The notes under the pieces are model-generated. The model was given only the letters and a program-made list of their open reading frames with translations. It ran no database searches and was not told the origin of the DNA. Position numbers and translations under genes: made by a program. Source: a phage. From it: DNA of 64,000 bases. The DNA is taken from sequence record PX393108.1; one strand, written 5' to 3'. How positions within the stretch are numbered: position 1 is the stretch's first letter; the number at the start of each line of letters is the position of its first letter. Of this stretch, positions 20,009-23,145 are shown piece after piece.

Positions 20009-20386
20009 TCACTCAAATTTAATGGCTTGAAGGAGACTAATAATTCTCAAGCGACTTCTTTCATCTTTAACTGTAAAAGAAAGAGGGTCACCAGATTTCA
20101 TAGTGATGGTGCATCCAAAATCAAAATCTTCTGTAACTTCTTCGAATAGGTCAAACTCTTCATCATAAATTAGAACATTACTCTGAAAACTGTGAAGAAT
20201 TTTTCCATCATTTCCAGATGCTGTACTAATCATTGTAACATTATGGCCTTTCATATCTTCAACGGTAAATTCGCTTGTAGATATTACGGCATTAATAGAA
20301 CCATTCCTATAAATAGAAGAAAGCAGATATTTCTTTTCTTCACCTTCGCGAACACGATATTTCTTACCAATTTTAAACATAATCAC
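20009..20386 (-). CDS. Hypothetical protein (125 aa)
   Basis: ORF in same-strand array. Confidence 0.6.
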   Translation of the reverse strand: MIMFKIGKKYRVREGEEKKYLLSSIYRNGSINAVISTSEFTVEDMKGHNVTMISTASGNDGKILHSFQSNVLIYDEEFDLFEEVTEDFDFGCTITMKSGDPLSFTVKDERSRLRIISLLQAIKFE

Positions 20387-20561: not shown

Positions 20562-20855
20562 TTATTCCTTAAAATGTGCTTTCAACATCTGATACAAGGA
20601 CCACGCATGTTCATTATTTTCAATAGTAACTTTCATTACCGGGAATTCTGTGAAATCTTCTATCTGTTCTTGCTCTTCAGAAGCTTGGTATGGATTTTCC
20701 ACTTCATCAAAGAACTCAGCTTCGTTAGTAGAGAGCCAGATAAAGTTTTCGTCAAGGATATCAGCGCCGGCACAACGTTTGAGTACACCTGTGGATGTCA
20801 CAATTTTAGTAGGACGACTGAGATGGTCAACATCTAAAATTTTAAAAGGTTCCAT
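20562..20855 (-). CDS. Hypothetical acidic protein (97 aa)
   Basis: ORF; acidic composition. Confidence 0.55.
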
Positions 20856-20965
20856 ACCTAAACGTCGTGCGTAGATTCCGTTATCAGTATGGTCTTTAAT
20901 AAAAGCTTCTTAAGCTTGTTTATTTTTAAATTGATACCATTTATTAACTTCAAATCTAATAGCCA

Positions 20966-21181
20966 TTAATAAATTTCCTTCCAGTAAGTTGTACCGTCTT
21001 CAGTGATTTCACGGAATACACCATAAATCGGTTGTTTATCACCAACCTTTTCATACACATAAACTGAAGTCAAGTGAGTAAACTTAACGGTATGTTCTTT
21101 TTGAACTACTACCAAATCTGGATCAAATAATACATCTTCAAATTCGTCATTAGTGCAATTCTGAACAATTTTACGTTTCAT
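20966..21181 (-). CDS. Hypothetical protein (71 aa); size and position compatible with T4 cef
   Basis: Positional inference only. Confidence 0.45.
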   Translation of the reverse strand: MKRKIVQNCTNDEFEDVLFDPDLVVVQKEHTVKFTHLTSVYVYEKVGDKQPIYGVFREITEDGTTYWKEIY

Positions 21182-21194
21182 TACAATATCCTCA

Positions 21195-21476
21195 TTAATT
21201 AAACAGTGGAGCGATGCGTTTCAGAAGAGTAGCAGCACCTTTGGCAAATTTTACATCATGAAAAACAGTTTCTTCTTCCGTTACAACACGAACTTTAATG
21301 TTTTCACAATCCCAATTTTTACGAACAATCTTCAAAAGCTGCAGTAAATCTTTACATTCAGCAATATCGATAACACATCCACGAGAATCTTCCATTATCG
21401 CACGATAACCATAAGCCATACCATAATCGTTGAAAGATTGTTCGATGATAATTAAGTTTTCCATTTTATTCTCCAA
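21195..21476 (-). CDS. Hypothetical protein (93 aa)
   Basis: ORF preceded by conserved early leader. Confidence 0.55.
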   Translation of the reverse strand: MENKMENLIIIEQSFNDYGMAYGYRAIMEDSRGCVIDIAECKDLLQLLKIVRKNWDCENIKVRVVTEEETVFHDVKFAKGAATLLKRIAPLFN

Positions 21477-21561
21477 GTTGTTTTCTGTATCAGTAGTTGA
21501 TATTGATATAATACCATAATCAACTACTGATGTATATAGTTTTATGAAAAAAATTTAAACT

Positions 21562-22059
21562 TTATGCACAGCGAGCTTTGCTATAATGTTTAATCCAACT
21601 TTCAGGAATGACTTTGTATGTTCCTAAAAATACCGCGTTGTACAGCTTAACACCATCTTCTACCCACTGATCGGTAATGTACGCGCACATAGCACGAGTA
21701 CGGCGTTTTTGAACAACCCCTTCCTCATCTTCAGTAAATTCGAATTCATAAGGAGCAACGAACTTAATAGCTTGACCGAGTTTCCACTTAAAGTCTACAC
21801 CTACATGTGAAGTATCAATCGTTTCAATTCCTTTAGCAGGAACAGCTTTCAAAAACGCAGACTCAAGAAATTTCGCACGAACATAGCCAAACTGAGGTTT
21901 AGACTTTCCATCTTTAGGAATGATACGCACTTTTACTTCAGAATCTTCATCTTTAACGCCATGTTTAAGCTGAATGCTTACAATTTCGACCAATTTTCCT
22001 GCTGCTTTAGAGCGGGATTTATCAGATACACGAGCTAATTCACCAATATTAATAATCAT
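21562..22059 (-). CDS. MotB-like protein (165 aa), paralogue of the adjacent ORF
   Basis: Size and position match T4 motB (about 162 aa); C-terminal ~60 aa (…ITDQWVEDGVKLYNAVFLGTYKVIPESW…) is shared with the ORF at 22133-22567. Confidence 0.55.
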   Translation of the reverse strand: MIINIGELARVSDKSRSKAAGKLVEIVSIQLKHGVKDEDSEVKVRIIPKDGKSKPQFGYVRAKFLESAFLKAVPAKGIETIDTSHVGVDFKWKLGQAIKFVAPYEFEFTEDEEGVVQKRRTRAMCAYITDQWVEDGVKLYNAVFLGTYKVIPESWIKHYSKARCA

Positions 22060-22094
22060 AGTTATTTCTCACTTGTTAAAAAGATTTTATACTC

Positions 22095-22140
22095 CGCGGG
22101 ACCATTATACTCTGGTCCCAAGAGTTTGTAAACTAGCTTA
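22095..22140 (-). promoter_or_regulatory. T4-type early promoter (-35 GTTTACA, 17 nt, -10 TATAAT)
   Basis: Minus strand GTTTACAAACTCTTGGGACCAGAGTATAAT overlapping the stop of the upstream paralogue. Confidence 0.55.
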
Positions 22141-22567
22141 CACGAACATTAATCACTGCGCTGCGAGGAACGACAGAATACTCTCCAGCATGAACTACAT
22201 TAAGAAGTTCAACGCCATCTTCAATCCACTGGTCAGTTACCCAACCGCCAATCGGATTCGCGAATGGACGACGAATATAAACTGCCTTACACAACAAATC
22301 AGTCGGGTCTTCAGGTTTTTCAATTTCTGTCAATAGATTAAAATCTTCTTCATAGATGATGAATGATGATACCCTTCCATAATAGTTTCTAATTTCCATG
22401 TACACTGTACCAATGAGAATTCCGCTATTAACACTAATAACAGTAAAAGGATATCCGCCAGTTGTACCAAGAAGTTCCCAAAACTTGCTATCAGTCGTAT
22501 TCGACATTGTCTGAAAATCAATTTCAGACGGTTTTTTCATTTGATACGTAGTATTAATTTTAATCAT
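22133..22567 (-). CDS. Hypothetical protein (144 aa), paralogue of the MotB-like ORF
   Basis: Shares C-terminal motif …VTDQWIEDGVELLNVVHAGEYSVVPRS… with 21562-22059. Confidence 0.55.
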   Translation of the reverse strand: MIKINTTYQMKKPSEIDFQTMSNTTDSKFWELLGTTGGYPFTVISVNSGILIGTVYMEIRNYYGRVSSFIIYEEDFNLLTEIEKPEDPTDLLCKAVYIRRPFANPIGGWVTDQWIEDGVELLNVVHAGEYSVVPRSAVINVRVS

Positions 22568-22577
22568 AATTTTCTCT

Positions 22578-23081
22578 TTAGTCTAAGGTAATAAAGCCTT
22601 TTAATTCAGCATGCGATTTGCGGAACATTACTTGGTGCCCGCCAATGATAACTTCATCTTCAGGAACTTCGTATACAGCAAGATAAAATCCTTTAGAAGC
22701 TAATTCTTCACGCTCTTCTCGTGTGAACCATCTCATCATATCATATTCACTAGCGAAAGCAAAATGATAAAGAGCTATAAACCATCCTGGAATATAGTGA
22801 TCTACGCCTACATATTCCTCTTTCTCAAATTTAGTATTAATTGCTATATTAGCATTTTTAACTAATAATTTGTCTTCGCGCGGAAGAGGAATTCTTTTGT
22901 TATCATTACTATGATGTGTAAAATTAGGTCTATCATAACCTACGTGTAATAACCACTCTTCGCTCCATGAATCTATTATACTCCTGTATGGCGTTATTTG
23001 AACACAAAGATTTCGACGTATTGTTATAGCATCTTCACAATTAAGAATACTAAACGATGATTCAACACGATAAATTTTCAT
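22578..23081 (-). CDS. Hypothetical protein (167 aa)
   Basis: ORF downstream of an early promoter. Confidence 0.6.
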   Translation of the reverse strand: MKIYRVESSFSILNCEDAITIRRNLCVQITPYRSIIDSWSEEWLLHVGYDRPNFTHHSNDNKRIPLPREDKLLVKNANIAINTKFEKEEYVGVDHYIPGWFIALYHFAFASEYDMMRWFTREEREELASKGFYLAVYEVPEDEVIIGGHQVMFRKSHAELKGFITLD

Positions 23082-23099: not shown

Positions 23100-23145
23100 T
23101 ATGGTGTTATAATACCATAACTAACCGAGGAAGTAAACAACTTTT
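23100..23145 (-). promoter_or_regulatory. T4-type early promoter (-35 GTTTACT, -10 TATTAT)
   Basis: Minus strand AAAAAGTTGTTTACTTCCTCGGTTAGTTATGGTATTAT. Confidence 0.55.

What the first reader, a model, noticed from the sequence alone, without database searches (positions are those of the whole stretch)
21562..22567. Tandem paralogues sharing a C-terminal domain (MotB-like pair)
Two adjacent early genes (165 and 144 aa) share a conserved C-terminal module (…DQW[VI]EDGV[KE]L…V…G.Y.V[IV]P.S…) but have different N-terminal halves, and each has its own early promoter. This suggests a duplicated effector scaffold with diversified targeting domains. The 165-aa member matches T4 MotB (a DNA-binding modifier of transcription) by size and position.
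Basis: partly seen in the sequence, partly recalled or inferred. Interest (0 to 1): 0.5.

Follow-up and report, generated by a model that had tools for sequence, protein, structure and literature searches.

The report
Known T4 motB / motB.1 paralogue pair
The two adjacent genes are the T4-type early genes motB and motB.1; their shared C-terminal domain and unrelated N-terminal domains are real, but this was already published in 2021, so the finding is correct and ordinary.

Summary
Two minus-strand ORFs (21562-22059, 165 aa; 22133-22567, 144 aa) share a C-terminal module. BLASTP gives 16/39 identical, E 3e-10. Smith-Waterman scores 98 against 28±4.5 for shuffles (0 of 2000 reach it). Family profiles align at E 2e-14 over about 51 columns. 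The N-terminal halves are unrelated.

The window is a Tequatrovirus. The 165-aa protein is MotB (Pfam PF17613, E 2e-99; 91% identical to T4 MotB). The 144-aa protein is MotB.1 (114/115 identical to T4 MotB.1).

Son et al. 2021 (PMC7827196) already reported that MotB and MotB.1 share a CTD, differ in their NTDs and probably arose by duplication. Kim et al. 2025 (PMC12152347) assigned the MotB.1 NTD to an LSm-like family. Novelty: already known.

- **Correction:** only motB has an adjacent early-type promoter. motB.1 starts 10 nt after the motB.2 stop and is probably co-transcribed with it.
- **Refinements:** models suggest MotB is a tandem of SH3-like barrels. MotB is basic (pI 9.2) and MotB.1 acidic (pI 4.7). 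The CTD occurs in only 34 protein clusters worldwide, some with swapped N-terminal domains.
- **By-product:** the 119-aa T4 reference MotB.1 results from one extra base in NC_000866.4. Every other T4 record listed in that search (13) lacks the base, and the two checked encode 143 aa with the full CTD.

The parts
21562..22059 (-). motB coding sequence (165 aa plus stop)
   Evidence: ORF. Pfam PF17613 motB, 330.4 bits, E 2.2e-99, covering residues 1-163. phrog_1671, E 5e-76. 91% identical to T4 MotB.
21859..22059 (-). MotB N-terminal domain, residues 1-67: basic KOW/SH3-like small beta-barrel
21793..21858 (-). MotB inter-domain linker, residues 68-89, predicted disordered
   Evidence: pLDDT is below 50 for residues 69-83. 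This region varies in length and carries insertions across homologues.
21562..21792 (-). MotB C-terminal domain, residues 90-165 plus stop: the module shared with MotB.1
   Evidence: hhalign aligns MotB 93-159 with MotB.1 91-142, E 2.3e-14. AF2 pLDDT is 84-94, with five strands and a short helix between the fourth and fifth.
21598..21714 (-). Best-conserved core of the shared module in MotB (residues 116-154)
   Evidence: BLASTP high-scoring segment. It contains the 32-nt direct DNA repeat 21644-21675 / 22206-22237, 78% identical.
22133..22567 (-). motB.1 coding sequence (144 aa plus stop)
   Evidence: ORF. 114/115 identical to T4 MotB.1. phrog_2333, E 8e-69. Pfam motB matches residues 103-138 at 32.9 bits, above the curated cut-off of 25. 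Identical to the phage JoYop protein cm3_120.
22316..22567 (-). MotB.1 N-terminal domain, residues 1-84: acidic LSm-like/SH3-like barrel of the GoF/Frd.2 type
22136..22315 (-). MotB.1 C-terminal domain, residues 85-144: the module shared with MotB
   Evidence: hhalign. Nearly invariant across the MotB.1-like family. AF2 pLDDT is 65-74, below 50 for the last 15 residues.
22160..22276 (-). Best-conserved core of the shared module in MotB.1 (residues 98-136)
   Evidence: BLASTP high-scoring segment.
22104..22132 (-). Early-type sigma-70 promoter of motB (GTTTACA, 17 nt, TATAAT), overlapping the motB.1 stop codon
   Evidence: 11 of 12 consensus matches. Sequence read. Identical in T4.
22091..22125 (-). 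Stem-loop that holds the motB -10 hexamer in its loop; on the upstream transcript it lies just after motB.1
   Evidence: RNA fold -20.2 kcal/mol, z = -3.2 against shuffles.
23109..23137 (-). Early-type promoter upstream of motB.2, the probable promoter for a motB.2-motB.1 transcript
   Evidence: GTTTACT, 17 nt, TATTAT with an upstream TG. Only 10 nt separate the motB.2 stop from the motB.1 start.
22578..23081 (-). motB.2 (167 aa), the upstream cistron of motB.1
   Evidence: ORF. phrog_1106, E 4e-54. Same position as T4 motB.2.

Best explanation
**Shown.** These are the Tequatrovirus early genes motB (165 aa) and motB.1 (144 aa). They sit in the conserved order dexA - motB.2 - motB.1 - motB - (cef). 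Each protein has two domains joined by a flexible linker. The C-terminal domains of about 55-70 residues are homologous. Their conserved core is G[WY][VI]TDQW[VI]EDGV[KE]L[YL]N.V..G.[YF].V[VI]P[ER]S. The N-terminal domains are unrelated in sequence.
- The MotB NTD is a basic KOW-like barrel.
- The MotB.1 NTD is an acidic LSm/SH3-like barrel of the GoF/Frd.2 type.
- The pair is an old duplication. DNA identity survives only in a 32-nt core, at 78%.
- N-terminal domains have since been exchanged. Relatives carry one to three LSm-like repeats, or a KOW-type NTD on a MotB.1-type CTD.

**From the literature.** MotB is a very abundant early protein. It binds DNA tightly and non-specifically, co-purifies with H-NS and StpA, alters H-NS footprints, de-represses H-NS-silenced host genes, is toxic to E. 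coli, and doubles burst size. MotB.1 is dispensable in the laboratory and has no known function.

**Inferred.** In MotB the basic KOW domain supplies most of the non-specific DNA affinity. The shared C-terminal barrel is a common interaction module, binding a nucleoid partner or itself, rather than the generic DNA-binding surface. On this view MotB.1 brings a different N-terminal barrel, possibly RNA-binding, to the same place. motB is transcribed from its own strong early promoter. motB.1 is transcribed as the second cistron of a motB.2-motB.1 early unit.
For: - **Identity:** Pfam and PHROG matches; 91% and 99% identity to the T4 proteins; same gene order as T4 and JoYop; 214 phage records cover at least 80% of the 2.1-kb region.
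- **Homology of the CTDs:**
- **Modularity:** MotB.1-like proteins of 144, 166, 180 and 250 aa with one to three NTD repeats. Hybrids with a KOW-type NTD and a MotB.1-type CTD.
- **Charge:** MotB pI 9.2 with NTD 9.75. MotB.1 pI 4.7. The shared core has pI 6.2 in MotB and 4.2 in MotB.1.
- **Promoters:**
- **Published biology:** PMC6070864, PMC7827196, PMC12152347, and the bioRxiv summary of MotB abundance and nucleoid compaction.
Against: - No domain dissection of MotB or MotB.1 has been published, so assigning DNA binding to the NTD and partner binding to the CTD rests only on charge and conservation.
- Son et al. 2021 predicted an OB-fold nucleic-acid-binding CTD by HHpred.
- The fold assignment for the CTD is indirect. 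The models could not be cut into domains, the Foldseek E-values are weak (2e-3 to 3e-2), and the MotB.1 CTD is modelled with only moderate confidence.
- Transcription of motB.1 from the motB.2 promoter is inferred from spacing and consensus scans, not from mapped transcript ends.
Confidence: 0.8

Rival explanations
1. The shared C-terminal domain is an OB-fold (cold-shock-like) nucleic-acid-binding domain. It gives both MotB and MotB.1 their nucleic-acid affinity, and the N-terminal domains only modulate it. This is the reading of Son et al. 2021.
Against: - The AF2 model of the MotB CTD has five strands with a short helix between the fourth and fifth. It has no helix between the third and fourth, which is the SH3-like pattern rather than the OB pattern.
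- Foldseek aligns the whole protein to tandem Tudor/KOW-type proteins.
- The shared core is neutral in MotB (pI 6.2) and acidic in MotB.1 (pI 4.2). Its invariant polar residues are D, Q and E, which are unusual for a generic DNA-binding face.
- The EF-P matches can be explained by its KOW-like domain I aligning with the MotB.1 NTD.
Confidence: 0.25
2. The shared C-terminal domain is a homo- or hetero-oligomerisation module. Acidic MotB.1 pairs with basic MotB through it and tunes MotB's DNA coating, acting as a partner or antagonist encoded next door.
For: - The two genes are adjacent and both early, and 41 genomes carry both.
- The net charges are opposite.
- The MotB.1 CTD is modelled poorly as a monomer, with pLDDT 65-74 and a tail below 50. 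This would fit folding on binding.
- MotB.1 ran as both monomer and dimer on non-reducing gels.
Against: - No interaction data exist.
- The dimer seen by Kim et al. was of the 119-aa form, which lacks most of the core. It appeared only without reducing agent, so a disulfide is the simpler explanation.
- Their AlphaFold3 homomultimer models had low confidence.
- Deleting motB.1 does not change burst size, whereas knocking down motB halves it.
Confidence: 0.15
3. The similarity is a chance or compositional match, or a very recent local gene conversion, and has no functional meaning.
For: The pairwise match is short, at 39 residues.
Against: - None of 2000 shuffles reaches the score, and z = 15.
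- Profile-profile comparison gives E 2.3e-14.
- Each family conserves the core almost invariantly across dozens of diverged phages.
- The DNA is only 78% identical over 32 nt and much lower elsewhere, so the event is not recent.
Confidence: 0.01

Closest known systems
Phage T4 MotB (modifier of transcription B; Pfam PF17613; NP_049626)
   Same: The 165-aa protein is its orthologue. It is 91% identical, matches the Pfam model over its full length, sits in the same genomic position, and has the same early promoter.
   Different: It is three residues longer because of a small insertion in the beta-hairpin region of the CTD (EEGVVQKRR against GRVVY). In this phage an extra 93-aa ORF separates motB from cef.
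Phage T4 MotB.1 (NP_049627 in the reference, 119 aa; ADJ39729 and QPI17238 in re-sequenced T4, 143 aa)
   Same: The 144-aa protein is its orthologue. It is 114/115 identical over the part present in the reference protein, and 137 of 143 compared positions match the 143-aa form.
   Different: The last seven residues differ (INVRVS against VAILN). The reference 119-aa entry is cut inside the shared core by a one-base insertion, so it hides most of the homology to MotB. T4 MotB against reference MotB.1 gives only E 0.004, compared with 3e-10 here.
[quoted passage not shown] 2025, PMC12152347)
   Same: The MotB.1 NTD is modelled with high confidence as a small bent beta-barrel. Its structural neighbours include FeoA and the IdeR SH3 domain, as those authors reported. 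The window holds two further members.
Tandem Tudor / tandem KOW / SAWADEE / Agenet proteins (for example 53BP1, UHRF1 TTD, Spt5 KOW6-KOW7)
   Same: Overall architecture: two SH3-like small beta-barrels in tandem. Foldseek aligns 153-177 columns of MotB to them with probability up to 1.0.
   Different: Sequence identity is only 9-14%, E-values are weak (2e-3 or worse), and rmsd is large because the domain orientation differs. This is a structural analogy, not a family assignment.
Other phage proteins that act on H-NS (T7 gp5.5 and the Pseudomonas phage protein of PMC8501957, both listed; T4 Arn from my own knowledge)
   Same: They are early phage proteins linked to relief of H-NS-mediated silencing, the role proposed for MotB.
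   Different: No sequence relation was found. MotB binds DNA itself, and a direct contact with H-NS has not been shown.

Membership tests
MotB family (Pfam PF17613, phrog_1671) | Full-length match to the family profile above the curated cut-off | tested here: met
   165-aa protein: 330.4 bits against a cut-off of 25, residues 1-163 on profile positions 1-160 of 162. phrog_1671, E 5e-76.
MotB family (Pfam PF17613, phrog_1671) | N-terminal KOW-like domain plus the conserved C-terminal domain | tested here: met
MotB family (Pfam PF17613, phrog_1671) | Position between motB.1 and cef in the dda-39 early region, with its own early promoter | tested here: met
   Gene order compared with T4 and JoYop. 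The promoter at 22132..22104 is identical to the T4 sequence.
MotB family (Pfam PF17613, phrog_1671) | Tight non-specific DNA binding, toxicity to E. coli, co-purification with H-NS | not testable with these tools
   Known only for T4 MotB. Inferred here from 91% identity.
MotB.1 family (phrog_2333; Son et al. category 2) | MotB-type C-terminal domain (partial PF17613 match) joined to a non-KOW N-terminal domain | tested here: met
   144-aa protein: Pfam motB 32.9 bits (cut-off 25), on residues 103-138 only. phrog_2333, E 8e-69. The N halves are unrelated.
MotB.1 family (phrog_2333; Son et al. category 2) | Orthology to T4 motB.1, immediately upstream of motB | tested here: met
   114/115 identical. 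Same position.
LSm-like fold family GoF / MotB.1 / Frd.2 (Kim et al. 2025) | N-terminal five-stranded bent antiparallel beta-sheet (SH3/LSm-like), structurally close to FeoA and Hfq | tested here: inconclusive
LSm-like fold family GoF / MotB.1 / Frd.2 (Kim et al. 2025) | Detectable sequence-profile link between the MotB.1 NTD and GoF-type proteins | tested here: met
   The MotB.1-family NTD profile hits window ORF 20012-20386 at E 2e-7. hhalign gives 94% and E 8e-8. That ORF matches phrog_622 (E 4e-28) and the goF phrog_13003 (E 2e-7). MotB.1 itself hits phrog_622 at E 6e-4.
OB-fold (cold-shock-like) nucleic-acid-binding domains, proposed for the CTD by Son et al. 2021 | Five-stranded barrel with a helix between strands 3 and 4, and structural matches to OB proteins | tested here: inconclusive
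   The DSSP assignment on the model shows the short helix between strands 4 and 5 instead. Whole-protein Foldseek matches are to tandem Tudor/KOW proteins. The CTD could not be searched on its own, and the CTD profile has no sequence relative in the PDB.

The most novel reading that the evidence does not exclude
The shared C-terminal barrel is neither a DNA-binding nor a purely structural domain. It is a dedicated targeting module that docks onto one host nucleoid component, such as H-NS/StpA filaments, or onto the other paralogue. T4-like phages combine it with interchangeable nucleic-acid-binding barrels: KOW, or one to three LSm-like repeats. MotB.1 would then be a second, so far missed, nucleoid or RNA effector. 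It was missed because the published functional tests used the 119-aa reference form, which lacks this module.
Probability: 0.2. Interest if true: 0.5.

Novelty: already known. Interest (0 to 1): 0.12.

Why it matters
The finding adds nothing to what Son et al. 2021 reported, so it matters little.

Two by-products have practical value for people working on T4 early genes.

1. **The reference MotB.1 is cut short.** The NC_000866.4 / AF158101.6 entry is truncated inside the shared domain by one extra base. Every other T4 record listed in the search lacks that base. The only functional study of MotB.1 synthesised the gene from that reference, so its negative results may not apply to the native 143-aa protein.
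2. **The shared domain may not bind DNA.** MotB and MotB.1 carry opposite charges, and the CTD looks SH3-like rather than OB-like. Both points suggest the shared domain is not simply 'the DNA-binding domain'. This can be tested with a few truncation constructs.

Tried and rejected
- **Chance similarity:** rejected by shuffles and by profile comparison.
- **Recent duplication or gene conversion:** rejected, because DNA similarity is limited to a 32-nt, 78% identical stretch.
- **A further copy of the CTD in the 64-kb window:** none found. Six-frame ORFs searched with both CTD profiles gave only the two genes.
- **Solved structures by sequence:** none for MotB, MotB.1 or the CTD profile.
- **Anti-defence or defence annotation (PADLOC):** no hits.
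- **AlphaFold database fold search:** the library was not available.
- **Fold of the CTD alone:** could not be isolated. The CTD fold therefore rests on the DSSP pattern and on whole-protein Foldseek matches.
- **Prior report of the one-base discrepancy in T4 motB.1:** Rihtman et al. 2016 report 55 short indels against AF158101. Their supplementary tables, as held, did not let me find this position.
- **Long repeat proteins in the representative search** (P0256-P0263, 4-7 stretches each): of the two read, P0256 (a probable tail-fibre-like protein) repeats 'LSGYATEQWVLDKNYITG' and P0263 is a different internal repeat. I treat the group as spurious matches to the GW.TDQW motif.

Full report

Yes. 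The region holds two minus-strand ORFs, 21562-22059 (165 aa) and 22133-22567 (144 aa). BLASTP between them gives one significant segment: residues 116-154 against 98-136, 16/39 identical, 25/39 positive, E 3e-10.

A Smith-Waterman score of 98 compares with 28.0±4.6 for 2000 shuffles (maximum 54, z about 15, none reach it). The N-terminal halves score 21, below their shuffle mean of 24.5.

I aligned 38 homologues of the first protein and 31 of the second. Profile-profile comparison of the two alignments gives probability 98.3% and E 2.3e-14. It extends the homologous region to MotB 93-159 and MotB.1 91-142.

**2. What are the genes?**

The window is a Tequatrovirus. The 2.1-kb region is 97% identical to phage JoYop. 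578 phage records match it, and 214 of them cover at least 80% of it.

The gene order matches T4: dda, dexA.2, dexA.1, dexA, motB.2, motB.1, motB, cef.
- The 165-aa protein is MotB: Pfam PF17613 at 330 bits, E 2e-99, and 91% identical to T4 MotB.
- The 144-aa protein is MotB.1: 114/115 identical to the T4 entry, and phrog_2333 at E 8e-69.
- Pfam's motB model also matches residues 103-138 of MotB.1 at 32.9 bits, above its cut-off of 25. Curated resources therefore already link the two proteins.

**3. Is it known?**

Yes. Son et al. [quoted passage not shown] Kim et al. 2025 (PMC12152347) assign the MotB.1 NTD to an LSm-like fold family with GoF and Frd.2.

Published biology of MotB:
- It is an abundant early protein that binds DNA tightly and non-specifically.
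- It co-purifies with H-NS and StpA, changes H-NS footprints, and up-regulates H-NS-repressed host genes.
- It is toxic to E. coli and doubles burst size.

MotB.1 is dispensable in the laboratory and has no known function.

**4. Anatomy**

*MotB.* The AF2 model has mean pLDDT 78.7. It shows an N-terminal beta-barrel (strands between residues 8 and 67), a disordered linker (69-83), and a confident C-terminal beta domain (pLDDT 84-94). The C-terminal strands are 97-112, 115-134, 137-144, 147-152 and 156-159, with a short helix between the last two.

Together with the helix position, this suggests both MotB domains are SH3-like small barrels. That differs from the OB-fold proposed for the CTD by HHpred in Son et al. 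I could not search the CTD alone, so this point stays open.

**5. Family-wide picture**

The core GW[VI]TDQW[VI]EDG[VI]ELLNVVH.G.[FY][ST]V.PR[ST] is almost invariant in MotB.1-like proteins. The matching G[YFW][IV][ST]D[QR]W[VI]E.G.KLYN.VF stretch is almost invariant in MotB.

MotB.1-like proteins come in lengths of 144, 166, about 180 and about 250 aa, with one to three copies of the N-terminal barrel.

A profile of the CTD alone, searched against 1.84 billion representative proteins, found only 34 clusters. These include hybrids with a MotB-type KOW NTD and a MotB.1-type CTD, such as P0243, P0246-P0248, P0250, P0252 and P0254. The module has therefore been shuffled among N-terminal barrels within T4-like phages. 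It is not detectable elsewhere, and it has no sequence relative in the PDB.

At the DNA level the two copies in the window share only a 32-nt stretch at 78% identity. The duplication is old and is maintained by selection on the protein.

**6. Promoters**

motB has a near-consensus early-type promoter, GTTTACA-17-TATAAT, at 22132..22104. It overlaps the motB.1 stop codon and is identical in T4.

motB.1 starts 10 nt after the motB.2 stop. The only consensus match nearby (22585..22557) ends inside the motB.1 coding sequence. The nearest plausible promoter is GTTTACT-17-TATTAT at 23137..23109, upstream of motB.2. motB.2 and motB.1 are probably one early transcription unit. This is an inference, since no transcript ends were available.

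**7. Most likely mechanism**

*Shown:* two two-domain proteins share a C-terminal module and differ in their N-terminal barrels.

*Inferred:* MotB is basic (pI 9.2, NTD 9.75). MotB.1 is acidic (pI 4.7). The shared core is neutral in MotB (pI 6.2) and acidic in MotB.1 (pI 4.2). Its invariant polar residues are D, Q and E.

This argues that the generic DNA affinity of MotB lies mainly in the KOW domain and basic residues. The shared barrel would then serve a common interaction, either with a nucleoid partner or with itself or its paralogue.

The rivals cannot be excluded with these tools. They are an OB-type DNA-binding CTD, and a MotB-MotB.1 heterodimerisation module.

**8. By-product: the T4 reference MotB.1 is frameshifted**

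The T4 reference protein (119 aa) diverges from the window protein right after TDQWI. DNA alignment shows one extra base in the reference: GGATTGGAAGA against GGATTGAAGA, at NC_000866.4 7304-7305.

In a 71-nt search, only AF158101.6 and NC_000866.4 carry the extra base. All 13 other T4-type records listed lack it: T4T, RB55, RB59, KJ477684-6, MT984581, MZ375356, OL964735, OL964745, OZ209023, OZ209057 and OZ035787.

T4T and MT984581 annotate a 143-aa MotB.1. Removing one base from the reference reproduces exactly that protein. The same sequence is seen on 256 contigs in the protein collection.

With the reference form, T4 MotB against MotB.1 gives only E 0.004.

Kim et al. 2025 had motB.1 synthesised from NC_000866.4 and describe a 13.8-kDa monomer. 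They therefore tested the form that lacks the shared core. Neither paper mentions a frameshift or truncation.

**9. Verdict**

The finding is already in the literature, so its interest is low.

The most novel reading still open is that the shared barrel is a dedicated targeting or docking module, and that native full-length MotB.1 has an activity missed so far.

Noticed in passing
L001 2305-2306 (NC_000866.4 7304-7305); corresponds to window 22218-22225 (GGATTGAA on the minus strand): The T4 reference genome (AF158101.6 / NC_000866.4) has one extra base in motB.1. It frameshifts the protein after TDQWI and gives the annotated 119-aa '13.8 kDa' MotB.1. All 13 other T4-type records listed lack the base, and the two checked (T4T, MT984581) encode 143 aa with the full MotB-type C-terminal domain. 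The published MotB.1 constructs (Kim et al. 2025) were synthesised from the reference sequence.
   Followed up: yes
window 20910-20912 (minus strand), within the goF homologue (ATG at 20964-20966; remaining ORF 20562-20855): The goF homologue carries an ochre codon at codon 19: CAA in phage JoYop, TAA here. Only a 97-aa ORF remains, starting at an internal ATG and matching phrog_622 positions 42-132. This phage may therefore lack an intact GoF or make an N-terminally truncated one.
   Followed up: partly
window 20012-20386 (minus strand): A 125-aa ORF absent from T4 at this spot is a further GoF / MotB.1-NTD-type (LSm-like) protein. It matches phrog_622 at E 4e-28 and the goF phrog_13003 at E 2e-7. 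The MotB.1-family NTD profile hits it at E 2e-7, and hhalign gives 94%. The N-terminal barrel of MotB.1 therefore has at least three copies in this window.
   Followed up: partly
window 22091-22125 and 21489-21531 (minus strand): Both intergenic regions flanking motB contain a strong stem-loop whose loop or inner part holds the -10 hexamer of an early-type promoter. Fold energies are -20.2 kcal/mol for both, with z = -3.2 and -5.0 against shuffles. On the upstream transcript each hairpin would sit at the 3' end of the preceding gene. They may act both as terminator or RNA-stability elements and as promoters.
   Followed up: partly
window 21195-21476 (minus strand): A 93-aa ORF lies between motB and cef that T4 lacks (phrog_3720, E 1e-46, unknown function). 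It is also present in JoYop. It is preceded by its own promoter-like site at 21536..21508.
   Followed up: no
related proteins P0014, P0020, P0025, P0028, P0029, P0031-P0064, P0246-P0254: Many MotB.1-like and hybrid proteins carry a short conserved linker motif of the form [IF]D.D[VIL]..(M/T)Y..P[VI]KP, for example IDFDVVSTYVCPVKPLEIKE, DMDLVSMYVTPVEKI and DTDVASMYLTP. It lies before or between the barrels. In the 166-aa MotB.1 forms it is a 22-aa insertion that the window's 144-aa protein lacks. It may be a short linear interaction motif.
   Followed up: no
related protein P0255 (43 aa), and the 29-aa RB69 peptide mentioned by Son et al.: P0255 joins the first 13 residues of MotB.2 (MKIYRVESSFSIL) directly to the end of the MotB.1 C-terminal domain. 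This looks like a deletion product spanning motB.2 and motB.1. The orphan 29-aa RB69 'CTD core' peptide may likewise be a frameshift or deletion remnant rather than a gene.
   Followed up: no
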